A stretch of 64,000 nt of DNA, from positions 2,004-66,003 of the forward strand of contig JAPLLC010000106.1 in assembly GCA_026387775.1 (NCBI GenBank). Reading direction: 5' to 3'. How positions within the stretch are numbered: the first letter of the stretch is position 1; each line of letters begins with the position of its first letter. The notes under the pieces were generated by a model that saw only the letters and a program-made list of their open reading frames with translations, ran no database searches and was not told the DNA's origin. This DNA is from Candidatus Methylomirabilota bacterium. GTDB taxonomy: Bacteria; Methylomirabilota; Methylomirabilia; Methylomirabilales; 2-02-FULL-66-22. The translations under genes were made by a program, and so were the position numbers. Below, in pieces: positions 3,674-20,170 of the stretch.

Positions 3674-5353
3674 ATGCCGAGTCCCAGATTCCCCGCGACG
3701 GCAACGCTCATGGACGCCAGGCAGTGTCCGCTCGACAAGTTCGACGCCCTGTTCACGAAGATCACACAGGAGCGCCACATCGCGGATGGGTATTTCCTGC
3801 AAGCCCATCCCGACGAGGCGCGATTGCTGTTCGTCGTGAACGGATCGCCTTACGCCGCCGGACGCGTCGTCGGAGAGAAATGCACCTCCCTCGAGATCCA
3901 CGAGTTCTTTGTGGAATACGAACAGCACCCGGAGTCTCCGCTCTCCTTCTGTGTGGCGGACAAGCGGCTGCTCCTGGGTCTGATGGTCCTGTTCCACCAC
4001 CAGCCCGCCCTGACCTTCAGGACCAATCTCGTGGACATGCCGGAGATCCTGGAGGCGCTGGCGGAGCGAAAGGCCGACCAGGTCCTGGGTCTCCGGTCGG
4101 GGGATGGCTGGGCGGTGTCCATCTGCGCCAAAGGGAAGCCGGTGGCGAGCTTCTTCCCGCCGGGGGCGGGCGACGCCGCGAAGGCGGCGAACCCCGTCGA
4201 GCAGTTGATGGCCTACGCCGGGACCCACGCGGGCGGGTTGACGGTGGACGTGTACGAGGAGACTCGCGTCGGGCCGGCCGGCGACGCGACGCTGGCGACG
4301 CCGGAGACGCAGGGCCACCTGGCGGAGGTCTTCCTCCGCGTGGCCGCCAAGGTGCAGGAAGAGGAGGCCGAGGCGCCCCTGCTCCTGGAGATGGCGTCCG
4401 ACGAGCCCCTCACACTCGAGACGGCTCCCCCCGCGGCACCGCCGCCGGCCGCGGCTCCGGTCGTCGTTCCCGAGCCGGAGCCCCCGCCGATCGCGCTGGA
4501 AACCCCGTCGGAGGCCGCGAAGCCCTCGGTCGAGGCGATGACCCCGCGGACCCTGACCATCAAGACGCTGGGGTCGCCGACCCCGACCCCGCCGACCCCG
4601 TCGGCCGAGGCCCCCCCCGCGGCACCCCGGACGGCCTTCAAGGGGCCCATCCCGGAAGTCGTCCTGTATCTGGGAGACAAGGCGCTTGGGACGTTCTCGC
4701 TGGCGGGCGGCGAGCTGACGATCGGCCGCGTCTCCGGGAACGGCATCGTCATCGACAACGCGGGGGTCTCCCGCCGGCATGCGGTGATCCGGGTGAAAGA
4801 GGACAAGGTGTTCCTCGAGGATCTGGGGAGCGCCAACGGGACGTTTGTCCGGGGGCAGAAGATCGAGACCTGCGAGCTGCACGACGGGGACGAGATCGTG
4901 GTCGTGAAGCACCGGCTGCTGTACCGGATCCCCAAGGAGGCGGATGCCCCCCCGAAGGCCGAGCCCGCCGCGGACGCTGGACAGAAGACCATGTATATCG
5001 ACGCGGCGGCGATGGCCCAGGCCATGGGCGCCAAGCCCGGCCCCGCGCGAACCGAGACGGCCGCCGCCCTGCGCCCGCGCCTGATCCTTCCGGACCTGAA
5101 AAAGTTCGCGCTGGAAGAGGACGAGGTCACGCTGGGGAGCGCCGCGTCCTGTCAGATCCACCTCTCGGGTATGTTCGTGGGCAAAGAGCACGCCAAGATC
5201 GTGCGCACCAAGGAAGGGCACTTCAAGATCCAGCACCTCTCCGGGATGGCGGGCACCCGGGTCAACGGCGAGAAGATCACGGAGCACGTCTTGAAGCACG
5301 GGGACGAGATCGAGGTCGGCAAGCAGAAGCTGCTCTTCCGCCTGGAGCGCTGA
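3674..5353 (+). CDS. protein with unknown N-terminal domain, Pro/Ala-rich linker and two FHA domains
   Basis: AAGGAGG lies 7 nt upstream of the ATG. Two FHA signatures: TIGRVSGNGIVIDNAGVSRRHAVI...SANGTFVRGQK and TLGSAASCQIHLSGMFVGKEHAKI...GTRVNGEK. Confidence 0.85.
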   Translation: MPSPRFPATATLMDARQCPLDKFDALFTKITQERHIADGYFLQAHPDEARLLFVVNGSPYAAGRVVGEKCTSLEIHEFFVEYEQHPESPLSFCVADKRLLLGLMVLFHHQPALTFRTNLVDMPEILEALAERKADQVLGLRSGDGWAVSICAKGKPVASFFPPGAGDAAKAANPVEQLMAYAGTHAGGLTVDVYEETRVGPAGDATLATPETQGHLAEVFLRVAAKVQEEEAEAPLLLEMASDEPLTLETAPPAAPPPAAAPVVVPEPEPPPIALETPSEAAKPSVEAMTPRTLTIKTLGSPTPTPPTPSAEAPPAAPRTAFKGPIPEVVLYLGDKALGTFSLAGGELTIGRVSGNGIVIDNAGVSRRHAVIRVKEDKVFLEDLGSANGTFVRGQKIETCELHDGDEIVVVKHRLLYRIPKEADAPPKAEPAADAGQKTMYIDAAAMAQAMGAKPGPARTETAAALRPRLILPDLKKFALEEDEVTLGSAASCQIHLSGMFVGKEHAKIVRTKEGHFKIQHLSGMAGTRVNGEKITEHVLKHGDEIEVGKQKLLFRLER

Positions 5354-5376
5354 CGACGGATGTCGGGGCTCCAGGC

Positions 5377-5453
5377 AATTTCGAATTTCGAATTTCGAAT
5401 TTCGAATTCAAATTTCGAATTTCAAAATTGTAAATTGTAAATTGCAAATTCTG
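5377..5453. repeat. AT-rich tandem heptamer array (about 11 units: AATTTCG x4, degenerating to AATTGTA/AATTGCA)
   Basis: Read directly. Perfect 7-nt phase between the FHA gene stop (5353) and the comB start (5458). Strongly AT-rich compared with its surroundings. Confidence 0.85.
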
Positions 5454-5457
5454 GCCT

Positions 5458-6195
5458 ATGCACCTGGACGCTCTCTTCCTTCCCTGTGAGCTTCCCGCCC
5501 GCGCCCGGCCCGAGCAGGTGGCCGTGGTGATCGACGTGATTCGCGCCACCACCACCATCGTGACCGCGTTCCGACACGGGATCCGTTCCGTGCGGCCCGT
5601 GGCGAGCGCCGAGGAGGGGCGCAGCCTGCTGGCGGCGACCCCGGGGGCGCTCCTGGCCGGCGAGCGGGGCGGGCAGCGGATCGCCGGTTTCGATCTGGGT
5701 AACTCTCCGCGCGAATTCACGCGGGAGGCGGTGGCGGGCAGGGACCTCATCCTCTCCACGTCCAACGGGACGAAGACGCTGCGCGCCGTCGGCGAGGGCC
5801 GTCGGGTGGCCATCGCCGCCTTTCTCAACCGGGCCGCGGCGGCGGCCTGGCTCGCGTCCCGGCAAGAGGACAGCCTGATCGTCTGCTCGGGCTACGAGGG
5901 GATCTTCTCGCTGGAGGATGCGGTGTGCGCGGGGGCCGTCGTGGAGCGGGCATGCGCGCAGGAAACGCCGCCGGTACTCGGCGACGGTGCCCGGGCATGC
6001 CTCGCCCTCTGGGAGCGGTACGGGGCCGGCCTCCCCGCCCTCCTGAGGGGATCGGGCTGGGGCCGCCGCATCGAAAGCATCGGCCTGGGCCCCGATCTCG
6101 ACATCTGCGCCCGGCTCGACGCGACCAATGTCGTGCCGGTGATGGTCGGAGGACGGATCGCGCTGGAGGAACCCGGATCGAACCAGAAAGCCTGA
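5458..6195 (+). CDS. comB: 2-phosphosulfolactate phosphatase (ComB) family protein
   Basis: VVIDVIRATTTIVTAF...GFDLGNSP...STSNGT pattern is typical of the ComB family. Confidence 0.75.
   Translation: MHLDALFLPCELPARARPEQVAVVIDVIRATTTIVTAFRHGIRSVRPVASAEEGRSLLAATPGALLAGERGGQRIAGFDLGNSPREFTREAVAGRDLILSTSNGTKTLRAVGEGRRVAIAAFLNRAAAAAWLASRQEDSLIVCSGYEGIFSLEDAVCAGAVVERACAQETPPVLGDGARACLALWERYGAGLPALLRGSGWGRRIESIGLGPDLDICARLDATNVVPVMVGGRIALEEPGSNQKA
6178..6195. repeat. direct repeat copy 1 (comB 3' end, TCGAACCAGAAAGCCTGA)
   Basis: Matches 7112..7129 at 17 of 18 positions. Confidence 0.8.
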
Positions 6196-6233: not shown

Positions 6234-6440
6234 TCACGATTCCAAGCGGAGCATGTAGATCAGGTACGCTTGGACCTCCGCCGGGAAGAGCCCATCCGGC
6301 GCGCGGTGATAGTGTCGCGTCAAGCGGGCCACGGCCGTGAGGTAGCTCTCGCGCGTGCGCTCGGCCATTCCTCGAACCAGCATGTCGTTGTCCATCGCCG
6401 GCCGCGGTTTGTCGCGGTTGACGCACTTCCTAGGCAACAC
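6234..6440 (-). pseudogene. tyrosine recombinase/integrase remnant (N-terminal SAM-like domain only)
   Basis: MLVRGMAERTRESYLTAVARLTRHYHRAPDGLFPAEVQAYLIYM resembles the N-terminal core-binding domain of phage-type integrases. The ORF stops after about 60 aa and no catalytic domain follows. Confidence 0.55.
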
Positions 6441-6744
6441 TCAGCGTCTTGATGTTGGCTACGTCGTTCTTGATCGCCTGGGCCGCGTCCCACAGGTCGA
6501 TGGCGCGCTGGGCGTTGAGCCAGAACTCCGGCGAGTTGCCGAACAGCTTGGCGAGGCGCAGCGCCATCTCCGGACTCGCGGAGCGGCGCCCGCGCAGCAG
6601 CTCGTTGACCGACTGGCGCGACACACCGATCGCGCCGGCGAGTCCGGACACGGTCAGGCCATAGTCCGGCAGAAAGTCCTCGCGCAGCATCTCACCCGGA
6701 TGGGTGGGGCGGCGCTTCATGGGTCCCGTGTTGGCGAAACGCAT
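6430..6744 (-). CDS. higA: HigA-family antitoxin (XRE HTH)
   Basis: HPGEMLREDFL...GLTVSGLAGAIGVSRQSVNELLRGRR..SPEMALRLAKLFGNSPEFWLNAQ. GAGGTG RBS lies between the higB stop and the ATG at 6744. Confidence 0.8.
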   Translation of the reverse strand: MRFANTGPMKRRPTHPGEMLREDFLPDYGLTVSGLAGAIGVSRQSVNELLRGRRSASPEMALRLAKLFGNSPEFWLNAQRAIDLWDAAQAIKNDVANIKTLSVA

Positions 6745-6757
6745 CTCACACCTCGTC

Positions 6758-7039
6758 TCAGTGGTAGTCGCAGACCTGGACATCGTAGGCGTCTCCATCG
6801 ACGAACCGGAAGCAAATGCGCCACTGGTCGTTGATGGAGATCGAGCACTGACCTTTGCGGTCGCCTTCCAGTGCGTATAACCGGTTGCCAGGCGGAACCT
6901 TCAGGTCGTCAATCTGGGTCGCGAGGTCCACATACTCAAGCTTGCGGGCTGCGCGACCCGCGATATCCGATGGGAACCGATTGGCCCGACCAGTGTCGTA
7001 GAGGTCCTTTGCGCGCTTGTCCGCGAACGTCTTGATCAC
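6758..7039 (-). CDS. higB: HigB-family toxin (plasmid maintenance killer, RelE superfamily)
   Basis: (V)IKTFADKRAKDLYDTG...PPGNRLYALEGDRKGQCSISINDQWRICFRF. The start is uncertain (GTG 7039 or ATG 7069). Confidence 0.75.
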   Translation of the reverse strand: MIKTFADKRAKDLYDTGRANRFPSDIAGRAARKLEYVDLATQIDDLKVPPGNRLYALEGDRKGQCSISINDQWRICFRFVDGDAYDVQVCDYH

Positions 7040-7111
7040 GAGGAGGATGTAACGCGTCACGTGACACACGTCAAGAGGAATAAAGGTGTCCGGTAATTCT
7101 TCTTGCGCGGC

Positions 7112-7129
7112 TCGAACCCGAAAGCCTGA
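7112..7129. repeat. direct repeat copy 2 (TCGAACCCGAAAGCCTGA)
   Basis: Duplicate of the last 18 nt of comB including its TGA. Followed immediately by a family-1 repeat terminus. Confidence 0.8.
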
Positions 7130-7161: not shown

Positions 7162-7473
7162 TCAGGCGGCTCGACGCCGACGTAGGGTCGAGAGCGGGGC
7201 GAGGCTGAGTCGCAGTCGGAAGGGGGCCAGGAGCCGGTTTAGCGTCTCTTGGGTGGGGTTGTGTTGCGGGCGGATCGCCCGCTGCACGTTCGAGCGGGGC
7301 ATCTCCACCTGGGTGGCATACTCCGTGATCCCGATCGCCCGGATGACCTTCCCGAGGGCCTGCTGAATGGTCAACCCCTCCTCGATGGCGGCGAGGAGAA
7401 AGGCGCGGGCAAACTTGGGGTTGCGCAGCCGCTCGGCCAGATCGATGTTCCAGTCTTCGCTACGCCGTGCCAT
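7162..7473 (-). CDS. addiction-module antidote protein (HigA-2-like HTH)
   Basis: MARRSEDWNIDLAERLRNPKFARAFLLAAIEEG...ITEYATQVEMPRSNVQRAI. Overlaps the toxin gene by 14 nt. Confidence 0.8.
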   Translation of the reverse strand: MARRSEDWNIDLAERLRNPKFARAFLLAAIEEGLTIQQALGKVIRAIGITEYATQVEMPRSNVQRAIRPQHNPTQETLNRLLAPFRLRLSLAPLSTLRRRRAA

Positions 7474-7792
7474 GCTGGGCCTCCAGATAGTCGCTCCAGT
7501 ACCGCTGCGCCCGACGGATGTCCCGGGATTGGGACGCCTTGGTCCCGCCGAGGAGTAGCAGGAGGGTCTTTCGCTGATGCGTTCCGAAGTAGAGACGGTA
7601 CCCGGAGCCGAAGGGGAGCCGGGCCTCCCACACACCTCCACCGACCGCCTTGTGGTCGCCGAGATTCCCCGCCTCGAACCGTGCAATGCGCGCGGCGATG
7701 CGGGCCTGTGCCGGAATGGGGAGGGTATTCAACCACTCTCCATAAGGCCGGTGGCCGTCGGGGGTGACGTACTGACGAACGGTCCAGGACAT
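7460..7792 (-). CDS. addiction-module killer protein (RelE/ParE superfamily, HigB-2-like)
   Basis: PYGEWLNTLPIPAQARIAARIARFEAGNLGDHKAVGGGVWEARLPFGSGYRLYF...LLLLLGGTKASQSRDIRRA matches the pattern of this family. Confidence 0.8.
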   Translation of the reverse strand: MSWTVRQYVTPDGHRPYGEWLNTLPIPAQARIAARIARFEAGNLGDHKAVGGGVWEARLPFGSGYRLYFGTHQRKTLLLLLGGTKASQSRDIRRAQRYWSDYLEAQHGTA

Positions 7793-7901: not shown

Positions 7902-8741
7902 TCACAGGTCCATGCCGGCGGTGGTCGGGCGGCGGAGGCCGATGACGGCTTTGATGCTGTCCTTCCACTTGATCTTCGGGTCGCGGCGGTAACGGGTGTA
8001 GAGGGCACGGATGGCATTGTCGGACTGAAGGGCCATGAGGGCCTCACCGCGCCGGCCGGCCTCGGCGTTCCGGGGACAGTTGAAGGGGAGAATCTGACGG
8101 AGGCGGTTGATCTTCCCGAGCCAGATTGAATCGGACACGAAGGGGCGAACGGCGGCAATCAGGGCGTCTGGGTCCCCGTCCAGCATGGGCTCCCCAGAAA
8201 CGCTGGTCTGAAACTCCATGGCGTAGGCGTACTGGAGACAGGCAAGCCGGGCCTTGAAGGACGGCGCGCCGGGTTCCCAGTAGGATAGGATGGCGTCTTG
8301 CGTCGAGCCGATGGAGAATCGGAACACGATCTGTGCGCGGTACTGGGCGAGTTCCTCGCACAGGCGTTTGGCGCACGAGAGGCGCGGTTTCGACACAATC
8401 AGGAGGTCGTTACCCGCGGCCAGCATGCGACCGAGGACCGCTAGGCACTCGTCGATGTTCTGGTCGGTGATGTCGTGGGCGGTCGGGAACATGATCCGGC
8501 CGGATCGCCGGGTGAAACCGCGGTCGAGGTCGTGCTGACGGAACTGGGGCCGTTTCCACGAGGCCGGGGTCGCCCGTTTGAAGCGGATCGCCATGGTCTT
8601 GGCGTAGCAGTACAGGCAGTCGTGCTCGCAACCGTCCTGGATGTTGACGTTGCTTGCCGCCCATTCCTGGGTGCCGGTCGCTAGCCGGACTGTCTGTATT
8701 GTGGCGGTATTCATAGGCACAGTATACGAACTCCTGTTCAC
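7902..8741 (-). CDS. three-Cys-motif radical SAM-type protein (TcmP partner; SplB/Gp37-Gp68-like)
   Basis: GCEHDCLYCYAK is a CxxxCxxC motif near the N-terminus. The GTG start overlaps the stop of the upstream gene (GTGA); an alternative ATG is at 8714. Confidence 0.7.
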   Translation of the reverse strand: MNRSSYTVPMNTATIQTVRLATGTQEWAASNVNIQDGCEHDCLYCYAKTMAIRFKRATPASWKRPQFRQHDLDRGFTRRSGRIMFPTAHDITDQNIDECLAVLGRMLAAGNDLLIVSKPRLSCAKRLCEELAQYRAQIVFRFSIGSTQDAILSYWEPGAPSFKARLACLQYAYAMEFQTSVSGEPMLDGDPDALIAAVRPFVSDSIWLGKINRLRQILPFNCPRNAEAGRRGEALMALQSDNAIRALYTRYRRDPKIKWKDSIKAVIGLRRPTTAGMDL

Positions 8742-9928
8742 TGCTGCAAGGGAAGCCTCGCCTGCGGGATAGTTCCAACGATAATCCGGACCTTGTTGTG
8801 GTCCATGGAAAGGGATGGGCGGCCGGTGGGCGTCTTGGCCGGATCCCTTGCCACCGAGAACATGGTGCCCTCCCTCTCCTTGATTGCCTTCTTGTACTCC
8901 CCGGTCGTGTGGGCGATTCCGTGTTTCCGAATGAGGCGAATCAATAGGTCGCGGAGGTCAATCGGCGCCTCGAGTTCGGCAATGACCTTGTCCTGGATCG
9001 TCGCACCCCGTAGGGCTTCCAGCTCCGTGGCGTCGAACAGATAGAGTTGCCCACCTCTCTCCTGGTCTAGAAGTTTGCGCCATGCGGCGTGCATCTCATC
9101 TGCCATGAGGAAGAGACCGTCATGGTAGTCCGTCGCGAACACGAGCCGATACTTCGGCAAGTGGCGCGACCGATCTTTGATCGGGATGTTGACCACGTAC
9201 GTGAAGTGGTTGCGCAGCCGGTCTGTGTAGCCGGCGATGAATTTTTCTTCGGCCTGGTGGAAATCGAGCGTTCCGGCCTGGAAGTCGGCAAGGATGGTCT
9301 GCCAGTAATCGCCGCCGGCGACCTCGTCCATTCTGGCGGATGTGTTCTTGCCGTCGGTCTCATAGTCGAGATCGTCGGCCCAGTCAGGAACGGCTCGGGC
9401 GAGTTTCAACAGGCGGCAGCCCTCCCGGAGGAAGCCCGTTGTGTTGAAGTTGATGAGCATCTCGAGGGACTGAAAGCCGACTTCCTTCAACCGGGCGAAG
9501 TGATCGAAGTCGAGACTCTTGACGCCGTAGGGGTCCACGTAGAAGAAGTAGCTGCGCCCACGGTCTAAGCGACTGGACAGGAACCAGTGAAGGCATTGTT
9601 CATATTCGCCTTCGATGACTTCGCAATTGGGGGCGCTGGCAAGGTTGGCTCGGAGTTCGGCAGCGTACTTCTGTTCAATGAAGATTGCTTTGGCATCCAG
9701 CGCCGGGGTGCGGGCGATAATGGCGGCGACATGCTTGGCGATGATGAGGGGGGAGCCAGGCTGGCCGTCGTCGAACCGGCCCTTGCCGGCGAAGCAGTCG
9801 GCTATTCGGGTTGGTCGGCCGGACGTGGTGATCTTGGCCAGGTATGGGCCAAGATAGTGGTCGAGGATCTGATCTTTGAGCTTCGACCAGTCCCGTTTCT
9901 CCTCGAAGAAGTTGCCTCTGACGGCCAT
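8738..9928 (-). CDS. tcmP: TcmP-like (three-Cys-motif partner) protein, methyltransferase-like fold
   Basis: N-terminus FFEEKRDWSKLKDQILDHYLGPYL...IADCFAGKG (SAM motif I-like) and FFYVDPYG (motif IV-like). AGGAGGG RBS lies before the ATG at 9928. Confidence 0.6.
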   Translation of the reverse strand: MAVRGNFFEEKRDWSKLKDQILDHYLGPYLAKITTSGRPTRIADCFAGKGRFDDGQPGSPLIIAKHVAAIIARTPALDAKAIFIEQKYAAELRANLASAPNCEVIEGEYEQCLHWFLSSRLDRGRSYFFYVDPYGVKSLDFDHFARLKEVGFQSLEMLINFNTTGFLREGCRLLKLARAVPDWADDLDYETDGKNTSARMDEVAGGDYWQTILADFQAGTLDFHQAEEKFIAGYTDRLRNHFTYVVNIPIKDRSRHLPKYRLVFATDYHDGLFLMADEMHAAWRKLLDQERGGQLYLFDATELEALRGATIQDKVIAELEAPIDLRDLLIRLIRKHGIAHTTGEYKKAIKEREGTMFSVARDPAKTPTGRPSLSMDHNKVRIIVGTIPQARLPLQQ

Positions 9929-9957
9929 GCCTGCCCTCCTATGGCAACTCGTCAGCG

Positions 9958-9991
9958 GTTGTAATAGGGGACGTTGTTGTAATAGGGGACG
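9958..9991. promoter_or_regulatory. perfect 15-bp tandem direct repeat (GTTGTAATAGGGGAC x2 plus GTTG), candidate operator/promoter element
   Basis: Read directly. Lies 30-63 nt upstream of the tcmP ATG. Each unit carries TATTAC on the coding strand. Confidence 0.6.
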
Positions 9992-10120
9992 TTGCATCCT
10001 ATGACTCCTGGCGCTTGGGACCGCCGGGCGGGTCCGCCGACGTCGTCGGGACGAGACGGACAGGCCGCAGCGAAAGAGGGTAGGGGGAATCGCGGACCGC
10101 GCGAGCAGCGGGCGGTCGGG

Positions 10121-10441
10121 TCAGGGGGCGGGGCGGAGGCGCACCTCGAGGACCAAACCCAGGGCGGCGGCATAGCGCGAGAGCACGCTCAGGGACGGCT
10201 GACGCCACGAAGACTCGAGGGGCTTTTCGAGCCGGGCAATCACCGGCTGGCTCACCCCCATGCGGTCAGCGATCGTCCTCTGGGCGAGCCGGCGCTTCTT
10301 CCGCTGCTCGACCAGCTCCAGCACCGTGCGAACGGCCAGGGCCCGCTCATCGTAGGCCGCGCGCTCCTCAACGGTCATGCCACTCCGGAGTTCGGCGAGG
10401 TGGGCCATCACGTCGCTCGCCGCCTGACGCTTTCCCTTCAT
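10121..10441 (-). CDS. XRE-family helix-turn-helix protein (controller or antitoxin-like)
   Basis: HTH segment is LAQRTIADRMGVSQPVIARLE. Same strand as, and upstream of, the tcmP/radical-SAM pair. Confidence 0.7.
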   Translation of the reverse strand: MKGKRQAASDVMAHLAELRSGMTVEERAAYDERALAVRTVLELVEQRKKRRLAQRTIADRMGVSQPVIARLEKPLESSWRQPSLSVLSRYAAALGLVLEVRLRPAP

Positions 10442-10676
10442 TTGATATAATCCGCTAGGGTCCGGACGCCACGGGCTGTGGTATAGTATCGCAGGTGCAT
10501 GAAGTGATCATAGCCGATAGGCTATCACAAGGCAAGCGAGATTCTCGGGGGCGGGGACCGATGTTTGCGTCGGCATGACTTGGGAAGAACGCAACGAACG
10601 CTGATTCCCGCCCTGGATGCGGGAATGGTGGAGAGCGATAACAAGTCGGGTGTCAGAACCGACAAGAGGAGAGACG

Positions 10677-11318
10677 ATGCCCAGTGAATCACAGTCCGTG
10701 CCGTTCGTCGCCATCAACGACTGCTTGCGGGAGGATTTCCTTTTCCGGGTGCTGCACCGGGTCCTCGAGTGTCTGCCCACGTCGTCCGCGCCCAACGGTG
10801 CAGCGCTCACGCGGGCGGTCGCGTCGGTTCCCGTTGGCGGGTTCCGGCAGTTCAATCGGGCCCCGCGGGGCCTCCAGACGCGGGCGGCGATGTCTCAGTT
10901 TCGCTCGTCCGGTGTCTTTGTGGGGCAGGCGCTCGATGTCTGGCTGGAAGCGAACCGGACTCTTGCCGTTGCCGTGGAGGAATTCCTGGCCAAGCACGAG
11001 AGCCCGCGGGAGCGGATCCAGGCCGAGGCAGGGCAGTTCCGCGATCGGTGGAGCCTGGATGAGGTGCTCCGGCTGGCGGACCTGTTCTGTGCGGAGCAGG
11101 GTGCGGCCGACCGCGATGACGTCGCCCTCCTGCTCTGCTGCCTCACGAGCCGCGCCCCGGTTCCGGTCGGCCTTCCTGTCGAGACGGCAGTGGAGGTCTC
11201 CTTACCCGATGCCGCCCCTGCACCTGCTCCGGCAGGGGAGGAGGCCAGGCAAGAGGGCAACGGCTCGCCGGCTCCTGAAGGCTCTAGAAACGACGGTAGA
11301 CGGAAGAAGAAGAAATAG
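10677..11318 (+). CDS. hypothetical protein with Ala/Pro-rich basic tail
   Basis: AAGAGGAGAG RBS lies before the ATG at 10677. No family recognised. Divergent from the XRE gene. Confidence 0.45.
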   Translation: MPSESQSVPFVAINDCLREDFLFRVLHRVLECLPTSSAPNGAALTRAVASVPVGGFRQFNRAPRGLQTRAAMSQFRSSGVFVGQALDVWLEANRTLAVAVEEFLAKHESPRERIQAEAGQFRDRWSLDEVLRLADLFCAEQGAADRDDVALLLCCLTSRAPVPVGLPVETAVEVSLPDAAPAPAPAGEEARQEGNGSPAPEGSRNDGRRKKKK

Positions 11319-15301: not shown

Positions 15302-15721
15302 TCACCCGACGTGTGACCCGGGGACGGGAGCGACCAGGCGCAAGGAGGGGAAGTAGGCGCGGTAGCGGTGCGTGTCCCGCGTCAGCAGGGGGACGTCCAG
15401 CACTGCGGCGTGGGCACCGACGAAGAAATCCGGCAACACGCTTCGGCGCGTTCCGCCCCGGCGCCGATACTGCGTGTATGCTCTGGAGGCGAGAAAAAGC
15501 GCCGCGCGGGGGATGTCGTGAAATTCGAGGCCGACGGCCTCGATGGCTGCGTCCAGCTTCTCAATTGTGTCATAGGCCGGCGCCAGCTCGGCGTAGATGA
15601 CGGGATTGATGAGGATTGGCCCTCGTCGCGACCATTCGTCGAGTGCCGCTTGAGACCAGCGACTCCACTGCCGGTCCGCCGTTATGACATCGAGAAGAAC
15701 GTTGCTGTCGGCGAGGATCAC
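15302..15721 (-). CDS. vapC: PIN-domain toxin VapC
   Basis: MILADSNVLLDV... start with acidic PIN residues. 4-nt overlap with vapB. Confidence 0.85.
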   Translation of the reverse strand: MILADSNVLLDVITADRQWSRWSQAALDEWSRRGPILINPVIYAELAPAYDTIEKLDAAIEAVGLEFHDIPRAALFLASRAYTQYRRRGGTRRSVLPDFFVGAHAAVLDVPLLTRDTHRYRAYFPSLRLVAPVPGSHVG

Positions 15722-15993
15722 CTGAGACCCGGATCGCGAGCGTCCTCGTCGTAGCCGCGCAGCAGGCTCATCAATTGATCCGTGGTCATCCCCGCATGCG
15801 TCCCTGTGCCGCGAAGCCGGGCAAACCGACTTCGCCCGGATCTTCTGGGGTGAGCGGGCCCGGCGGGCCTCAGGATCACTTGCCCGTCCGGCGCGTAATC
15901 AAACGCGACCTGGCTGCCCGGAGCGAGTCCAAGGAAATCGCGGATCGGTTTGGGAATTGTCACCTGCCCTTTGGTTGTCATGGTGGTCGTCAT
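15718..15993 (-). CDS. vapB: AbrB/SpoVT-type antitoxin VapB
   Basis: TKGQVTIPKPIRDFLGLAPGSQVAF swapped-hairpin motif. GGAGG RBS lies before the ATG at 15993. Confidence 0.8.
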   Translation of the reverse strand: MTTTMTTKGQVTIPKPIRDFLGLAPGSQVAFDYAPDGQVILRPAGPAHPRRSGRSRFARLRGTGTHAGMTTDQLMSLLRGYDEDARDPGLR

Positions 15994-16008
15994 TTGCCTA
16001 TTCCTCCA

Positions 16009-16036
16009 GGTAATACTATGCGAGGTATGGTAATAC
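16009..16036. promoter_or_regulatory. 8-bp direct repeats GGTAATAC x2 (20-bp period) upstream of vapB, candidate operator
   Basis: Read directly at 16009..16016 and 16029..16036, just upstream of the vapB RBS. Confidence 0.3.
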
Positions 16037-16234
16037 AACGAGCCGATCCTGGCAACCGGAAACCGGCGACGCAGGGCGCGTGGGATTCTGATTCCCGTTT
16101 CGGCCCGCGCCTCGTCCTGAGATTCGTAGCGGGCGATGTTTTCCCTTGCCATGAGGCAGAGCTTGGGCTACTTGAATAGGCGAGAAAGGGCTGGCTCTCC
16201 TGACCGTCAACGCTTCATTTTGCTAGGAGGGAGT

Positions 16235-17230
16235 ATGAAAAAGCTCAGTGGGTTTACTCTTGTCACGCTTGCCGTCCTCATGACAGTCCTGCTGGTCTCG
16301 CCCGTGTCGGCCGCCAAGAAGGTCATCAAGCTGTCGCACAGCCACCAGGCCGACTTCGCCTCGGAGATCCACACCGCGGCCTGGATCTTCCAGAAGTGGA
16401 TCGACGACAATTCGGATACACTCGAAGTAAAAATCTATGCCGCGAATGCGCTGGGTGAAGAGCGCGCCGTGTACGAAGGGATGCAGCTAGGCTCGGGCGC
16501 GTCCGCCGTGATCAGCGGGACGGCGATCCTCAACAACTTTAGCAAGAAGACCGCCGTCCTGGACCTGCCGTTCATGTGGAAGAGCTACGACCACGCGCAC
16601 CACGTCCTGGATGGCAAGGTCGGGGAGGCGCTGGCCAAGGATCTGGATCAGAGCGGTTTCCAGGTCCTGGCCTGGATGGATAGCTGGGGCTTCCGGAACG
16701 TCGTCACGGCGAAGAAGGAAGTGAAGACACCGGCGGACGTCAAGGGGCTGAAGATCCGGACCATCCAAACCCCGACCTACGTCGCGGCCCTCAATGCCAT
16801 GGGGGCAAATGCCACCCCGATGGCATTCGGCGAGGTGTACACCGCGATGCAGACCGGCGTGCTCGACGGGCTCGAGCACGGCTCGGCCGTGATCAAGGCG
16901 CAGAAATTCTACGAGGTGTCGAAATACATCGCCTTGACCCAGCACCTGTTCGGGCCGCTGGTGTTCGCCTACTCGAAGAAGGAATGGGCCGGGCTCACCG
17001 ACAAGGAAAAGGCGGTCATCATGGATGGCGCCAAGATGGCCCGGGACGTCCAGCGCACCCTGGGTCCCCTGCGGGAGCAGGAGGCATTCGACTTCCTCAA
17101 GACGAAGGGGATGGTGATCCACAAGATCGACACCAGCGGCTTCCGCAAGGCCGCCGTCGCGACCCAGGACAAGTTTGCCAAGGAGGTCGGGGCTTCGGAC
17201 CCCCTCGAGATCATTCGGGCGACCAACTAG
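16235..17230 (+). CDS. TRAP transporter substrate-binding protein (DctP family), system 1
   Basis: Signal peptide MKKLSGFTLVTLAVLMTVLLVSPVSAAK. DctP-like sequence, followed by Q and M genes. Confidence 0.9.
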   Translation: MKKLSGFTLVTLAVLMTVLLVSPVSAAKKVIKLSHSHQADFASEIHTAAWIFQKWIDDNSDTLEVKIYAANALGEERAVYEGMQLGSGASAVISGTAILNNFSKKTAVLDLPFMWKSYDHAHHVLDGKVGEALAKDLDQSGFQVLAWMDSWGFRNVVTAKKEVKTPADVKGLKIRTIQTPTYVAALNAMGANATPMAFGEVYTAMQTGVLDGLEHGSAVIKAQKFYEVSKYIALTQHLFGPLVFAYSKKEWAGLTDKEKAVIMDGAKMARDVQRTLGPLREQEAFDFLKTKGMVIHKIDTSGFRKAAVATQDKFAKEVGASDPLEIIRATN

Positions 17231-17316
17231 GCGGTGCCGTTCTCTTCCGGGATGCGGCGGGGGGCGCGTTCTCCGATGCAAGAGATCCGTGTCGGTTTCT
17301 CAGGCAGGAGAGCGCT

Positions 17317-17817
17317 ATGCTCGACAAGGTCTTTGGGTGTGTGAACCGTGCATTCGAGATCCTCATCTTCGTCCTGTTCTTCCTCATCGTGATCGTGGGG
17401 GGCATGCAGGTCTTCAATCGCTTCGTCCTCAACCAATCCTTGAGCTGGAGCGAGGAGTTCATGGTCTACGCGCACATCTGGATGATCTTTCTGGCCATCC
17501 CGGTGGCTTATAACCGCGGCTCCCACATCGGCATGAACATCTTCGTCAAAGGATTGCCGCCGAGGGGGCAACTGATCCTGGCGCTGGCGGTAGACGGCAT
17601 GTGGGTCGTGCTGGCAGCGGCCATCGTGTTCTACGCGTCCGTGGTCATGGGTGTGGCGATCAACCAGAACAGCCCGGCCCTCGGCCTCCGGATGGATCGG
17701 GCCTACCTGAGCCTCGTGGTCGGAGGGACCTATCTGGGACTCCTGGCCCTGCGGAAAGCGACGGCCTCGGTCTGCCGGCTCCGCTCCGGTGAGATGGCGG
17801 GAGGTGCGACATGCTGA
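17317..17817 (+). CDS. TRAP small permease (DctQ), system 1
   Basis: Four hydrophobic helices. Overlaps the dctM start by 7 nt. Confidence 0.85.
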   Translation: MLDKVFGCVNRAFEILIFVLFFLIVIVGGMQVFNRFVLNQSLSWSEEFMVYAHIWMIFLAIPVAYNRGSHIGMNIFVKGLPPRGQLILALAVDGMWVVLAAAIVFYASVVMGVAINQNSPALGLRMDRAYLSLVVGGTYLGLLALRKATASVCRLRSGEMAGGATC

Positions 17818-19103
17818 TAGGTCTCTTCGTCGCGCTGCTCGTGCTCCTCTTCGGCGGGGCGCCGGTGCTCCTGGCCATCGGCATTGCCGGCCTTCTCGGC
17901 ATGTTTCTGAGCCCGGGGGTGGTCCTGGCGATCTTTCCACAGAAGATGTTTGCCATGCTCGACTCGTTCAGCCTCCTGGCCATGCCCTTCTTTATCTTGG
18001 CGGGAGAGCTGATGTCCCGGGGAGGGATCAGCAACAAGATGGTGGCGTTCTCCGAAACCGTGGTCGGACACTTGCGGGGCGGCCTCGGCCATGCCTCGGT
18101 CGTCGGCAGCATGATCTTCGCAGGCGTATCGGGCTCGTCGGTCGCCGACACCTCGGCCATCGGCTCCATCCTGATTCCAGCCATGAAGGATCGGGGCTAC
18201 CAGCCGGGATTCGCGGCCTCCATCCTGGCTGCCGCCGGAACCATCGGACCGATCATACCACCCAGTATGACCATGATCATCTATGGCTCGATGACCGGGA
18301 CATCCATCGGAGGACTTTTTCTGTCCGGGGTGATCCCGGGAATCATCATCGGGATCTTCCTGATGGCGACCATCTACATTCATTCCTTCTTCCCGCAGTT
18401 CCCCGCCCTCCGGGTCACGACGGGGAAGTTCGACTTCAAGAAGATGGTAAAGGCGTTGGGCCAGGTCTGGTCCGCGCTGCTCGCGCCCATCATCATCCTG
18501 GGGGGGATTCTGAGCGGCGTGTTCACGGCCACCGAGGCTGGCGTGGTGGCCTGCTGGTACGCCTTCATTGTCTCCTTCGTCGTCTACAAATCGCTGAAGC
18601 TCCGCGACCTGCCCAAGATCTTGGTGGACGCGGCCATCGTCACGACCACGGTGGTCGGGATCATCTCGGTCGCCGGGGCCTTCGGCTGGCTGCTGGCCTA
18701 TCTGGACTTCAACGTGATCGTGCTGGCTTTGCTCAAGAGCATCTCCAATGATCGAAACGTGATCCTGCTGGTCCTGCTCGGGGTCATTTTCATCATGGGG
18801 ATGTTCATCGAGTCGCTGGCGGTACTGATCATCTTGATCCCCGTGTGCATGTTCGTCACCAAGGCCTACGGGTTCGATCCGTTCCACTTCGGCCTGTTGA
18901 TGACGATCGCTACCCAGATCGGTGCGGTCACGCCGCCGGTGGCGGTCCTCCTCTTCGTGGCGACGAGCATCGCCGGATGCAAGTACGACGAGACGATCCG
19001 GTACTGCTACCCGTTCGTCGCCGCGCTGGTGGCCGTCATGCTTCTGGTGGCGTTTGTGCCCTGGACCGCGACCTATATCCCCCATCGCTTCCTGGGGCCT
19101 TAG
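17811..19103 (+). CDS. TRAP large permease (DctM), system 1
   Basis: 430 aa polytopic protein. Typical motifs are FILAGELMSRGGIS and IFAGVSGSSVADT. Confidence 0.9.
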   Translation: MLIGLFVALLVLLFGGAPVLLAIGIAGLLGMFLSPGVVLAIFPQKMFAMLDSFSLLAMPFFILAGELMSRGGISNKMVAFSETVVGHLRGGLGHASVVGSMIFAGVSGSSVADTSAIGSILIPAMKDRGYQPGFAASILAAAGTIGPIIPPSMTMIIYGSMTGTSIGGLFLSGVIPGIIIGIFLMATIYIHSFFPQFPALRVTTGKFDFKKMVKALGQVWSALLAPIIILGGILSGVFTATEAGVVACWYAFIVSFVVYKSLKLRDLPKILVDAAIVTTTVVGIISVAGAFGWLLAYLDFNVIVLALLKSISNDRNVILLVLLGVIFIMGMFIESLAVLIILIPVCMFVTKAYGFDPFHFGLLMTIATQIGAVTPPVAVLLFVATSIAGCKYDETIRYCYPFVAALVAVMLLVAFVPWTATYIPHRFLGP

Positions 19104-19207
19104 GAGCCGTTACGAAATAACTTGTCCACTCATTGGAATTTCGTTACGGCTCCTTATGCCGTTCCCGGAATTTCTCCGGTCAAGTTATTCTTTGACAACG
19201 GCTTAGC
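19103..19207 (+). repeat. interspersed repeat family 2, copy 1
   Basis: About 94% identical by eye to the reverse complement of 47027..47129. Internal inverted repeat GGAGCCGTTACGAAAT...ATTTCGTTACGGCTCC. Starts at the TAG stop of dctM. Confidence 0.8.
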
Positions 19208-19268
19208 GGGACGGGTTGCCGGGATAGCGGTCTCCTCCAATCTCCGATCTCAGAGGGAGAGTGTTGAC

Positions 19269-20108
19269 ATGCCAGACCTCATTCGTCAGTACGACAACAA
19301 GAACCAGCCGATCATCACGCCGGCGACGACGATTCTCTCCTCGACCTACTTCAATCTGGTTCGCCTGAAGAAGGGGGAGGAGCATGAGGCCATGATCGAA
19401 GGGTTCGAGACCCTGTACGCGGTCCTGTCCGGCAACGTGGAGATCGAGGTGAATGGCACGCCGTTCAAGGACGTGGGCCGGCGGCAGGATATCTGGTCGG
19501 GCAAGGCGGAATCCGTGTATGCCGGGGCCGGCGCCGTTGTCCGGGTGCGCGCCAATCAGGACGGCACGGAAGTGGCCGTGGCCGGCGGGGTCTGCGACAA
19601 GACGTTTCCCCCGTTCCGGGTGCTGCCCGAAGAGGTCGAGATGGTCGACGTCGGATCCATCGAGACGCGGTCGCACCGGCGGATCTTCCACCTCCTGGGC
19701 CAGAACGGCAACGGGCGGGCCAACAATCTCCTCATCAGCGAGCTGTATTGCGATCATGGCTGCTGGTCCGGATACCCGCCGCACAAGCACGACGAGGACC
19801 AGGGGGATGCGGAGACGGCCCACGAGGAGGTGTATCACTTTCGCTTCCGCCCCGAGACCGGCTTCGGCGCGCAGCTCGCCTTTCAGCCGGACGGTTCCTC
19901 GCGGTGCTTCATGACGCGGAACGGGGACACCTTCCTGCTGGACAAGGGATATCACCCGACGGTCACGTCGCCCGGCCACGAGGAGTACATCTTCACGATC
20001 CTGGTGGGGAAGACCCGGCGCGGCCTGGTCCAGAACTTCAAGGAAGAGCATCGGCATCTGATGCGCGGGATCCCCGGCATCCAGGACATGGTGAACAAGT
20101 TCAAGTAG
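19269..20108 (+). CDS. KduI/IolB-family isomerase (5-deoxy-glucuronate isomerase-like)
   Basis: GYPPHKHDEDQ...EEVYHFRF.PETGFGAQ...GYHPTVTSPGHEEY. The longer ORF from 19122 runs through the repeat, so the ATG at 19269 with a GAGGGAGAG RBS is preferred. Confidence 0.75.
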   Translation: MPDLIRQYDNKNQPIITPATTILSSTYFNLVRLKKGEEHEAMIEGFETLYAVLSGNVEIEVNGTPFKDVGRRQDIWSGKAESVYAGAGAVVRVRANQDGTEVAVAGGVCDKTFPPFRVLPEEVEMVDVGSIETRSHRRIFHLLGQNGNGRANNLLISELYCDHGCWSGYPPHKHDEDQGDAETAHEEVYHFRFRPETGFGAQLAFQPDGSSRCFMTRNGDTFLLDKGYHPTVTSPGHEEYIFTILVGKTRRGLVQNFKEEHRHLMRGIPGIQDMVNKFK

Positions 20109-20170
20109 GCGAGCCGGGATTCTTTGCGGCGCATCCGGCAACAACGCAGCGCCCGGGAGGATAGAAACCG

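What the first reader, a model, noticed from the sequence alone, without database searches (positions are those of the whole stretch)
7902..10441. XRE + TcmP-like methyltransferase-fold protein + three-Cys radical-SAM partner: candidate uncharacterised nucleic-acid modification or defence cassette
Seen in the sequence:
- Three co-directional minus-strand genes.
- The last two are translationally coupled (GTGA overlap at 8738..8741).
- The downstream protein has a canonical CxxxCxxC cluster (GCEHDCLYCYAK) right after an N-terminal ..QEWAASNVN.. segment.
- The upstream 396-aa protein has FFEEKRDWSKLKDQILDHYL.., IADCFAGKG (SAM motif I-like) and VDPYG (DPPY-like motif IV).
- The cassette lies between two TA pairs, near an integrase remnant, in DNA that looks lower in GC than its flanks.

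Established, from memory: the 'three-Cys-motif partner protein TcmP' family is defined only by its conserved pairing with a three-Cys radical-SAM/Gp37-Gp68-like protein. I know of no biochemical function for it. TA-rich islands are typical homes of defence systems.

Inference: a two-enzyme DNA or RNA hypermodification, or an anti-phage module, with the XRE protein acting as a C-protein-like controller.
Basis: partly seen in the sequence, partly recalled or inferred. Interest (0 to 1): 0.75.

Follow-up and report, generated by a model that had tools for sequence, protein, structure and literature searches.

The report
TcmP methyltransferase-like protein plus radical-SAM partner
A mobile two-gene pair of unknown function, a methyltransferase-like protein (TcmP) and a radical-SAM enzyme, sits here in a small toxin-antitoxin island; the same pair is often wired into restriction-modification operons elsewhere, so it probably modifies DNA, and the neighbouring XRE gene is not part of it.

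Summary
The genes and motifs are real. The 396-aa protein is a clear TcmP (TIGR04474, 95.5 bits against a cut-off of 53). The protein downstream is a CxxxCxxC radical-SAM enzyme of the spore-photoproduct-lyase/DUF5131 clan.

The pair is the conserved unit. In 40 of 40 informative related loci, from many phyla, TcmP has a three-Cys partner next to it, and in 38 the partner lies directly downstream. Partners fall into three classes: CX3CX2C as here, CX3CX3C, and DUF5131.

The TcmP model resembles the nucleic-acid amine methyltransferases RlmJ, Trm1 and RsmD. Its D-x-F-A-G-x-G, E and D-P-Y-G motifs are invariant. The immediate neighbours most often shared across loci are restriction-modification genes, including type III operons arranged Mod-TcmP-rSAM-Res.

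Three points need correcting:
- The XRE protein is absent from all 57 related loci and looks like an orphan RelE/ParE-type antitoxin beside a 20-codon toxin stub. It is not a conserved controller.
- Both intact TA pairs lie on one side of the pair.
- The radical-SAM start is more likely GTG 8720 or ATG 8714, behind an AGGAG, than the GTGA overlap.

I found no experimental work on this pair. PADLOC lists related TcmP+DUF5131 pairs only as candidates (PDC-M30, PDC-M41). Verdict: a new member of a known but uncharacterised kind, most likely a DNA-modification module acting in restriction conflicts.

The parts
8738..9928 (-). tcmP: 396-aa three-Cys-motif partner protein. It has an RlmJ/Trm1/RsmD-like class I methyltransferase fold with a C-terminal three-helix plus beta-hairpin (winged-helix-like) module.
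   Evidence: TIGR04474 at 95.5 bits against a cut-off of 53. The ATG-GCC-GT start is conserved in 5 relatives. AF2 model has pLDDT 81.6. Top Foldseek PDB hits are Trm1, RlmJ and RsmD/YhhF. D44-x-F46-A47-G48-x-G50, E85 and D132-P-Y-G135 are invariant in 50 sequences.
7902..8720 (-). Radical-SAM partner, 272 aa from GTG 8720 (alternative starts: ATG 8714 giving 270 aa, GTG 8741 giving 279 aa). It has a CX3CX2C cluster motif (GCEHDCLYC) and belongs to the SPL/COG1533-like clan.
   Evidence: Pfam Radical_SAM 27.3 bits and DUF5131 17.7 bits, both below threshold. A PDB profile search gives spore photoproduct lyase at E 1.7e-3. Foldseek top hits are SkfB, LipA and SPL. 1192 homologues, several named 'DNA repair photolyase' by JGI. 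hhalign against the CX3CX3C partners gives 98.8% probability, and against DUF5131 gives 59.8% over the N-terminus only.
8731..8735 (-). AGGAG Shine-Dalgarno-like element between the tcmP stop (8738-8740) and the radical-SAM start.
   Evidence: Read directly from the sequence. It explains the 'NRS' conservation in the longer gene calls.
9958..9994 (.). Perfect 18-bp tandem duplication (2.1 copies), 30 nt upstream of the tcmP start. Role unknown; possibly an operator or a recent duplication.
   Evidence: TRF score 74 with 100% matches. Not present upstream of tcmP in the 5 closest relatives.
10121..10441 (-). XRE/HTH_3 protein, 106 aa. It is a neighbour and not a conserved part of the module, and most likely an orphan RelE/ParE-type antitoxin.
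   Evidence: HTH_3 at 5.8e-7 and HTH_37 at 9.8e-5. Y4mF/HipB-family antitoxin is the best NCBIfam match. The best full-length plasmid relatives adjoin RelE/ParE toxins. No homologue in 57 related loci.
10438..10500 (-). 20-codon stub ORF (MHLRYYTTARGVRTLADYIK*) that overlaps the XRE start by ATGA. Probably the remnant of the cognate toxin gene.
   Evidence: Translation. The resemblance to the N-terminus of the RelE/Gp49-type toxin at 7460-7792 is judged by eye. A promoter-like site lies at 10535-10507.

Best explanation
The functional unit is two genes, not three.

Shown:
- TcmP is a SAM-dependent enzyme with the fold and catalytic-loop layout of methyltransferases that methylate exocyclic amino groups of flipped-out nucleic-acid bases (RlmJ, Trm1, RsmD).
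- Its partner is a [4Fe-4S]/SAM radical enzyme from the same superfamily branch as spore photoproduct lyase and DUF5131.
- The pair is inherited together, moves horizontally, and is repeatedly wired into restriction-modification operons.

Inferred:
- TcmP carries a C-terminal winged-helix-like module that would suit nucleic-acid binding (secondary-structure order only).
- The two enzymes act in sequence on the same base in DNA. TcmP would bind the site, flip the base and probably N-methylate it. The radical enzyme would then use a 5'-deoxyadenosyl radical to convert that base or a neighbouring one.
- The product would be a DNA mark that serves in restriction or anti-restriction conflicts, either as an accessory to an R-M system or as self-protection for the mobile element carrying it.

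In this window the pair is a stand-alone copy inside a small, lower-GC island of addiction modules. The XRE gene upstream is a leftover antitoxin. At most it co-transcribes with the pair by accident of position.
For: - Family identity: TIGR04474 at 95.5 bits against a cut-off of 53.
- Pair conservation: 40 of 40 non-redundant loci with a full-length TcmP and at least 800 bp downstream have a three-Cys partner. In 38 it lies immediately downstream on the same strand.
- Partner classes are related. hhalign of A2 against A6 gives 98.8% probability. A2 against DUF5131 gives E 8.8e-5 over the cluster-binding N-terminus. RadicalSAM.org places DUF5131 and SPL in one megacluster (PMC9477430).
- TcmP fold: Foldseek against Trm1 gives 5e-6 and against RlmJ 1e-5, with RsmD/YhhF also listed.
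- TcmP motifs: motif I, the motif II glutamate and the D-P-[YF]-G after beta-4 are invariant, including in Streptomyces-plasmid and Gordonia-phage members. The role of motif IV in amine methyltransferases is described in PMC5291279.
- Partner fold: radical-SAM barrel, with SPL among the best hits.
- Genomic surroundings: among 138 immediate neighbours, the most frequent Pfam families are ResIII, Eco57I, MmeI_Mtase, N6_N4_Mtase and N6_Mtase.
- Specific R-M arrangements: type III Mod-TcmP-rSAM-Res in L023, L041 and L045, and Mod-Res-TcmP-rSAM in L007. Type I genes adjoin in L001 and L014. A PLD/SNF2 protein plus an Eco57I-like methyltransferase adjoin in L006, L036 and L039. MmeI adjoins in L051 and GmrSD in L024.
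- Mobile elements: the pair sits between the integrase and the immunity repressor of Gordonia phage Jablanski and on Streptomyces plasmids.
- PADLOC candidates PDC-M30 and PDC-M41 are TcmP-like plus DUF5131 pairs.
- Dispensability: the gene is patchily distributed, and copies are disrupted or frameshifted in L031, L035, L042 and L048.
Against: - No biochemical or genetic data exist for any member.
- The closest solved structures to TcmP are RNA enzymes, not DNA enzymes, and TM-scores are low (0.33-0.35 on the query).
- Profile comparison with RlmJ is not significant.
- The winged-helix reading rests on secondary-structure order only.
- About three quarters of the loci have no R-M gene within two genes.
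- The window copy has no nuclease or methyltransferase neighbour, so any dependence on R-M cannot be obligatory.
- DUF5131 occurs in 176 phage records but this TcmP type in only 3, so the radical enzyme can work without TcmP.
- The N-terminal 52 residues of the partner, which hold the cluster loop, are modelled poorly.
- No background rate of R-M neighbours was computed. The claimed enrichment is my estimate.
Confidence: 0.5

Rival explanations
1. A self-contained anti-phage defence system of the PDC-M30/M41 type. It would kill or arrest the infected cell, or damage phage nucleic acid, rather than mark host DNA. For example, the radical enzyme could attack phage DNA or RNA that TcmP recognises, or could make a toxic nucleotide as viperins do.
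For: PADLOC lists TcmP-like plus DUF5131 pairs as defence candidates, and the B models score 350-377 bits on DUF5131 partners. The pair lies in the lysogeny region of a temperate Gordonia phage, next to Hna in S. meliloti (PMC12445080), next to a NACHT protein on a Streptomyces plasmid, and among TA modules here.
Against: The PADLOC candidates are untested as far as I could find. No nuclease, membrane or other obvious killing domain is present in the pair. The match to the pVip model is negligible at E 0.04. The invariant methyltransferase catalytic loop argues for a transferase rather than a sensor.
Confidence: 0.2
2. A DNA-damage repair module. The SPL-like radical enzyme would reverse a base lesion or adduct, with TcmP acting as the lesion-binding or base-flipping subunit.
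For: The closest solved sequence relative of the partner is spore photoproduct lyase, and JGI names homologues 'DNA repair photolyase'. lexA lies directly upstream in four Nitrospirota loci. The SPL-like PA0069 is reported as an SOS gene in P. aeruginosa (bioRxiv 10.1101/2022.03.14.484287). One neighbour carries a DNA-alkylation-repair-like HEAT domain.
Against: The match to SPL is local and weak at 20.6 bits. The lexA linkage is confined to one lineage. The patchy distribution, the mobile-element carriage and the copies embedded in R-M operons are unusual for a repair enzyme. The strictly conserved SAM and D-P-Y-G motifs of TcmP suggest catalysis rather than mere binding.
Confidence: 0.1
3. 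An accessory RNA-modification pair acting on rRNA or tRNA, analogous to RlmJ or Trm1 plus a radical-SAM RNA modifier.
For: All top structural matches of TcmP are RNA methyltransferases: Trm1, RlmJ and RsmD. Two M. abscessus prophage records label the DUF5131 gene 'RNA methyltransferase'.
Against: Distribution is sporadic and horizontal, pseudogenes are frequent, and the neighbours are R-M genes and mobile elements rather than translation genes. The prophage label is an unverified annotation.
Confidence: 0.12
4. A three-gene cassette in which the XRE protein is a dedicated C-protein-like controller of the pair.
For: The XRE gene is co-directional and 192 nt upstream of tcmP. No terminator-like site and no sigma-70-like promoter was found between them, so read-through from the XRE promoter is possible in this locus.
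Against: No XRE homologue occurs in any of 57 related loci. The family matches and the neighbours of its relatives point to RelE/ParE antitoxins. A toxin stub overlaps its start. The regions upstream of tcmP are not conserved among close relatives.
Confidence: 0.05

Closest known systems
TcmP / three-Cys-motif partner pairs (NCBIfam TIGR04474, paired with DUF5131 'phage Gp37/Gp68' PF07505); PADLOC candidates PDC-M30 and PDC-M41
   Same: TcmP scores well above the curated cut-off. The layout is the same two genes, with the three-Cys protein directly downstream. The mobile and defence-island surroundings are the same. Function is unknown in all of them.
   Different: The partner here is a canonical CX3CX2C radical-SAM protein of the SPL-like type, not DUF5131 (CX6CX2C). 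It reaches neither the Pfam DUF5131 threshold nor a meaningful PADLOC B-model score. The PADLOC A models cover only the N-terminal third of this TcmP subfamily.
RlmJ (23S rRNA m6A2030 methyltransferase, PF04378), Trm1 and RsmD
   Same: Class I fold. The motif I sequence D-x-x-A-G-x-G-R-[YF] is shared. A P-G-S-P-L-I segment opens the next helix. An acidic motif II is present. A D-P-x aromatic loop follows beta-4. These are the best Foldseek hits.
   Different: There is no significant sequence-profile relationship. TcmP adds a helical insert (about residues 163-240) and a C-terminal 90-residue module. It is always paired with a radical-SAM enzyme and is carried by mobile elements. Its substrate is unknown. 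That Trm1 has a D-P-F-G loop is from memory.
Spore photoproduct lyase (SplB) and SPL-like COG1533 proteins (PA0069, Rv2578c, TIGR04470 'radical SAM mobile pair protein B')
   Same: Radical-SAM barrel. A shared RFS(I)-x-S...(W/F)EPG(A/T)(P/S)SF..RL segment. SPL acts on flipped-out DNA bases.
   Different: Only a local match at 20.6 bits. The protein is shorter (270 aa against 340). Whether it has the SPL catalytic cysteine and tyrosines was not tested. SPL works alone, without a methyltransferase-like partner.
Multi-enzyme DNA base hypermodification systems (phage Mu Mom; 7-deazaguanine Dpd, which uses the radical-SAM enzyme QueE; phage thymidine hypermodification with radical-SAM steps)
   Same: A working analogy only. 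These are mobile, sporadic enzyme sets that alter DNA bases and act in restriction conflicts. Some include a radical-SAM step.
   Different: No homology was shown to any component of those systems, and no modified base has been shown for TcmP pairs. This comparison rests on general knowledge, not on a test made here.

Membership tests
TcmP (NCBIfam TIGR04474) | HMM score above the curated cut-off | tested here: met
   95.5 bits against a cut-off of 53, covering profile positions 1-260 of 263.
TcmP (NCBIfam TIGR04474) | Adjacent gene encodes a three-Cys-motif protein | tested here: met
   In the window, GCEHDCLYC is encoded directly downstream. A partner is present in 40 of 40 informative related loci.
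DUF5131 / phage Gp37-Gp68 (PF07505), for the partner | Pfam score at or above the gathering threshold over the whole domain | tested here: not met
   17.7 bits against 28.9, N-terminal 72 residues only. hhalign against DUF5131 partners gives 59.8% probability over 83 columns.
Radical SAM superfamily (PF04055) | CX3CX2C cluster motif and a partial TIM-barrel fold | tested here: met
   C29-x3-C33-x2-C36 is invariant in 29 homologues. Foldseek hits are SkfB, LipA, SPL and others. The window protein scores 27.3 against 29.5 in Pfam, marginally below threshold, but many close homologues carry a precomputed PF04055 hit.
Spore photoproduct lyase (SplB) | Full-length similarity and the SPL catalytic residues | tested here: inconclusive
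   Only a local match at E 1.7e-3 over 47 residues plus the cluster loop. Catalytic residues were not mapped.
PADLOC PDC-M30 / PDC-M41 candidate systems | Both genes match the A and B models | tested here: not met
   A models: 38.1 bits, partial, residues 32-169. B models: 16.5 and 15.5 bits. By contrast, DUF5131 partners score 350-377 bits on the B models. The window pair is related to these candidates but is not a member by these models.
RlmJ family (PF04378) | Significant sequence-profile similarity to RlmJ | tested here: not met
   No Pfam hit. hhalign gives about 1% probability, aligning motif I only. hmmsearch scores 1-5 bits. Fold similarity and the short shared motifs remain.
Amino-group (N6-A / N4-C / N2-G) class I methyltransferases | Motif I glycine-rich loop, an acidic residue after beta-2, and a (D/N)-P-x-aromatic loop after beta-4 | tested here: met
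   D44-C-F-A-G-K-G50 follows beta-1 (40-44). E85 follows beta-2 (79-84). D132-P-Y-G follows beta-4 (126-131). Methyl-transfer activity itself is not testable with these tools.
C-protein (controller) of a modification or R-M cassette, for the XRE protein | The regulator gene is conserved upstream of the enzymes it controls | tested here: not met
   jackhmmer found no XRE homologue in 57 related loci. Upstream regions are not conserved.
Type II toxin-antitoxin antitoxin (RelE/ParE partner, HTH_3/HTH_37 type), for the XRE protein | HTH antitoxin family match, with relatives encoded beside a RelE/ParE toxin | tested here: met
   Best NCBIfam match is the Y4mF/HipB-family antitoxin, below its cut-off. 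HTH_37 at 9.8e-5. Six of the best full-length plasmid relatives adjoin RelE/ParE toxin genes.
Type II toxin-antitoxin antitoxin (RelE/ParE partner, HTH_3/HTH_37 type), for the XRE protein | An intact cognate toxin gene next to it | tested here: not met
   Only a 20-codon stub ORF precedes it, at 10438-10500.

The most novel reading that the evidence does not exclude
TcmP and its radical-SAM partner together write a DNA base modification that has not yet been described. In this reading an exocyclic amine is methylated and then reworked by radical chemistry at specific sites. R-M systems of types I, IIG and III would have repeatedly recruited the pair as a second layer of self-marking, and phages and plasmids would use it to escape restriction.
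Probability: 0.2. Interest if true: 0.85.

Novelty: new member of a known kind. Interest (0 to 1): 0.5.

Why it matters
TcmP pairs are a sizeable family: about 3600 clusters at 50% identity match at E <= 1e-3. They are spread across many bacterial phyla, at least one archaeal MAG contig, plasmids and a few phages, and no function is known.

Two things make the problem directly testable. First, TcmP has an intact amine-methyltransferase catalytic core, and its partner sits in the DNA-acting SPL/DUF5131 branch of radical-SAM enzymes. Second, the pair is repeatedly built into type I, IIG and III restriction-modification operons. Together these point to one experiment: nucleoside mass spectrometry and modification-aware sequencing of DNA from cells expressing the pair.

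A positive result would add a new DNA modification chemistry and a new accessory layer of restriction-modification. A negative result would redirect attention to RNA or to abortive defence.

For this window specifically, the result is more modest. It holds an ordinary member of the family in a decaying addiction-module island.

Tried and rejected
- XRE as controller: rejected.
- GTGA translational coupling: downgraded after comparing homologue N-termini and finding the AGGAG.
- Literature: searches for TcmP, three-Cys-motif partner, TIGR04474, DUF5131, PF07505, COG4422, PDC-M30/M41, Gp37Gp68, SPL-like families and radical-SAM defence systems found only passing mentions. Ophion, a radical-SAM + PHP + PRTase system, is unrelated.
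- Sequence search of PDB with the TcmP profile: nothing meaningful. With a DUF5131 partner: nothing.
- BFVD fold search of TcmP: only generic class I methyltransferases.
- RlmJ homology by hhalign and hmmsearch: not significant. The RlmJ homologue set returned was too uniform (83% identity or more) to build a useful profile.
- tRNA genes as an integration site: none in 1-24 kb.
- The second lower-GC stretch at 15.5-20 kb holds TRAP-transporter and KduI/KduD sugar-acid genes, not defence genes.
- The ORF at 10677-11318 (+) next to the XRE gene has no family match.
- Metabolic radical-SAM pathway: no confident homology to any.


Full report
**What is there**

On the minus strand there are three ORFs:
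- 10121-10441, 106 aa, the XRE-type protein.
- 8738-9928, 396 aa. The longer 419-aa ORF reaching 9997 is unlikely. ATG 9928 has a GGAGGG 5 nt upstream, and the ATG-GCC-GT start is the only conserved feature in an alignment with the five closest relatives.
- 7902-8741, the radical-SAM protein.

GTGA is at 8741-8738. However, homologues of the third protein are mostly 269-272 aa and start at the equivalent of ATG 8714 or GTG 8720. An AGGAG at 8735-8731 lies 10 nt before GTG 8720. It also accounts for the apparent amino-acid conservation of the longer N-terminus. The two genes are therefore tightly linked, but coupling through the GTGA overlap is not the best reading.

G+C dips to 0.59-0.60 across the pair, against 0.65-0.73 around it.

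**The surroundings in the window**

Downstream of the pair lie:
- a RelE/ParE-type toxin (TIGR02683, 95 bits) with its HI1420-type antidote, at 7162-7792;
- a HigB/HigA pair at 6430-7069;
- a 68-aa integrase N-terminal fragment at 6234-6440.

Both intact TA pairs are thus on one side of the pair.

The XRE protein's best family matches are TA antitoxins and HTH_37. Its best full-length relatives on plasmids sit against RelE/ParE toxin genes. It is preceded by a 20-codon ORF, MHLRYYTTARGVRTLADYIK, that overlaps its start by ATGA and looks like the N-terminus of such a toxin. A jackhmmer search found no XRE homologue in any of 57 related loci. I conclude it is an orphan antitoxin of a decayed third TA module and not a controller of the pair. 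Read-through from its promoter-like site (10535-10507) into tcmP cannot be excluded, because no terminator-like or promoter-like site separates them.

**Family identity**

The 396-aa protein is TcmP: TIGR04474 at 95.5 bits against a cut-off of 53. It has no Pfam domain.

The partner is just under the Pfam Radical_SAM threshold (27.3 against 29.5) and far under DUF5131 (17.7 against 28.9). It has weak NCBIfam matches to SPL-like families: Rv2578c, PA0069 and 'radical SAM mobile pair protein B'. A profile of 29 homologues finds spore photoproduct lyase as the only solved relative (E 1.7e-3, local). JGI calls several homologues 'DNA repair photolyase'.

PADLOC models PDC-M30A and PDC-M41A match TcmP weakly and partially. 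PDC-M30B and PDC-M41B are in effect DUF5131 models: they score 350-377 bits on DUF5131 partners but 16 bits on the window protein.

**Conservation of the pair**

A scan of one genome per species returned 54 loci from a wide range of groups. These include Lentisphaerota, Verrucomicrobiota (including Akkermansia), Nitrospirota, Desulfobacterota, Bacillota, Spirochaetota and Planctomycetota. Candidate phyla and an archaeal MAG contig are also represented.

Of the 40 non-redundant loci with a full-length TcmP and at least 800 bp of downstream sequence, 38 have a three-Cys protein immediately downstream on the same strand. The other two have one adjacent in another arrangement.

The partners fall into three classes:

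| Class | Motif example | Loci |
|---|---|---|
| CX3CX2C | GCEHDCxYC, the window type | 3 |
| CX3CX3C | GCSHGCLYPC | 22 |
| DUF5131 | GCxKxSxGCxNC | 15 |

The first two classes are clearly homologous (hhalign 98.8%). DUF5131 aligns only over the cluster-binding N-terminus (59.8%, E 8.8e-5). RadicalSAM.org places DUF5131 and SPL in the same megacluster (PMC9477430).

No other neighbour is conserved. The family comprises about 3600 clusters at 50% identity at E <= 1e-3.

**What the proteins look like**

The AF2 model of TcmP (pLDDT 81.6) is a seven-stranded class I methyltransferase core. It has a helical insert at about residues 163-240 and a confident C-terminal module of three helices and a beta-hairpin.

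Foldseek against the PDB puts Trm1 first (5e-6). A block of RlmJ entries follows (1e-5 to 7e-5), and RsmD/YhhF also appears. All three methylate exocyclic amines of flipped-out bases. TM-scores are modest, at 0.33-0.35 on the query.

The residues that matter are invariant in 50 sequences, including distant Streptomyces-plasmid and Gordonia-phage members:
- D44-x-[FY]-A-G-x-G50 after beta-1;
- E85 after beta-2;
- D132-P-[YF]-G135 after beta-4.

In amine methyltransferases the motif IV loop after beta-4 carries the catalytic residues, and its aromatic residue stacks on the flipped base (PMC5291279).

By eye, TcmP shares with E. coli RlmJ the strings D-x-x-A-G-x-G-R-[YF] and P-G-S-P-L-I. Profile-based tests of that relationship were not significant, so I treat RlmJ as a structural analogue or very distant relative, not as a family assignment.

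The partner model (pLDDT 70; the first 52 residues are poor) is a radical-SAM barrel. Its best hits are SkfB, lipoyl synthase and SPL.

**Genomic company**

Among 138 immediate neighbours (two on each side) from about 50 loci, the most frequent Pfam families are ResIII (7), Eco57I (5), MmeI_Mtase (4), N6_N4_Mtase (4) and N6_Mtase (3). PLDc_2, DpnI and GmrSD also occur.

The arrangements are telling:
- Three Nitrospirota loci read type III Mod - TcmP - rSAM - Res, with overlapping gene ends.
- An Akkermansia locus reads Mod - Res - TcmP - rSAM.
- Type I hsdR and hsdM/S genes adjoin the pair in L001 and L014.
- A PLD/SNF2 protein and an Eco57I-like methyltransferase precede TcmP-DUF5131 in two PVC-group loci (L036, L039). 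In a third (L006) the PLD/SNF2-type protein directly precedes TcmP at a contig end, so no partner is visible.
- MmeI (L051) and GmrSD (L024) adjoin in others.

At least 13 of about 52 loci have such a gene within two genes. I estimate this is well above background, but I did not compute a background rate.

The pair also lies in several other mobile or defence settings:
- between the integrase and the immunity repressor of temperate Gordonia phage Jablanski, where gp43 is TcmP-like and gp42 is DUF5131 at 341 bits;
- on Streptomyces plasmids, once beside a NACHT protein;
- next to the Hna defence gene in S. meliloti (PMC12445080).

Four loci carry disrupted or frameshifted TcmP genes. In four Nitrospirota loci lexA is directly upstream. 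The SPL-like PA0069 is reported as an SOS gene, which keeps a repair role alive as a rival.

DUF5131 occurs in 176 phage records, but this TcmP type in only 3.

**Mechanism**

Shown:
- Two SAM-using enzymes are inherited as a unit.
- One has an intact amine-methyltransferase core.
- The other has a radical-SAM cluster motif and barrel, from the clan that contains the DNA-acting SPL.
- The pair has mobile, patchy distribution and recurs inside R-M operons.

Inferred:
- The substrate is DNA.
- TcmP binds and flips a base and probably N-methylates it.
- The radical enzyme then transforms that base or an adjacent one.
- The product serves as a mark in restriction or anti-restriction conflicts.

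I put this at about 0.5.

**Novelty and verdict**

The TcmP and three-Cys pairing is already defined computationally in NCBIfam. Related pairs are listed as untested candidates in PADLOC. I found no experimental paper.

The window holds a new member of that known, uncharacterised kind, with the less common canonical CX3CX2C partner. Its three-gene model, its 'between two TA pairs' description and its translational-coupling detail do not.

Interest is moderate. The locus itself is ordinary for the family, but the family is a well-posed open problem with a clear decisive experiment.

Noticed in passing
window 9958-9994: Perfect 18-bp tandem duplication (GTTGTAATAGGGGACGTT, 2.1 copies), 30 nt upstream of the tcmP start codon. 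It is absent upstream of tcmP in the five closest relatives. It could be an operator or a recent slippage event.
   Followed up: partly
window 10438-10500 (-): 20-codon ORF, MHLRYYTTARGVRTLADYIK*, that overlaps the XRE start by ATGA. It resembles the N-terminus of the RelE/Gp49-type toxin at 7460-7792, so it is probably the stub of a lost toxin gene.
   Followed up: partly
window 6174-6195 and 7108-7129: 22-nt direct repeat (91% identical). It brackets the integrase fragment and the HigB/HigA pair. The first copy is the 3' end of the 2-phosphosulfolactate phosphatase gene (5458-6195). It may be an att-site scar from an integrated element.
   Followed up: no
window 5377-5451: AT-rich block of overlapping AATTTCG/AATTGTA-type short repeats. 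It lies in the gap between the FHA-domain-like ORF (3674-5353) and the phosphatase gene, in otherwise 65-70% G+C DNA.
   Followed up: no
L023, L041, L045 (Nitrospirota); L007 (Akkermansia): The TcmP-rSAM pair sits inside type III restriction-modification operons, arranged Mod-TcmP-rSAM-Res with overlapping gene ends, or Mod-Res-TcmP-rSAM in Akkermansia.
   Followed up: partly
L008, L034, L035, L042 (Nitrospirota): lexA (LexA_DNA_bind + Peptidase_S24) lies directly upstream of tcmP on the same strand. In L035 tcmP is split by an insertion of about 2.6 kb. In L031, L042 and L048 tcmP is in two frames.
   Followed up: no
L058 (Gordonia phage Jablanski, MT521999.1) 3983-5852: gp43, annotated 'methyltransferase', is TcmP-like. 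The convergent gp42 is DUF5131. They lie between the integrase and the immunity repressor, beside a RelE/RelB pair, which is the region where temperate actinophages carry lysogen-expressed genes.
   Followed up: partly
window 15500-20200: A second stretch of lower G+C (0.59-0.62). It carries a DctP-type TRAP-transporter solute-binding gene plus KduI and a short-chain dehydrogenase (sugar-acid use). It is not defence-related.
   Followed up: yes
window 10677-11318 (+): ORF of about 213 aa, divergent from the XRE gene, with no Pfam match and a lysine-rich C-terminal tail. It is unclear whether it is a real gene.
   Followed up: partly
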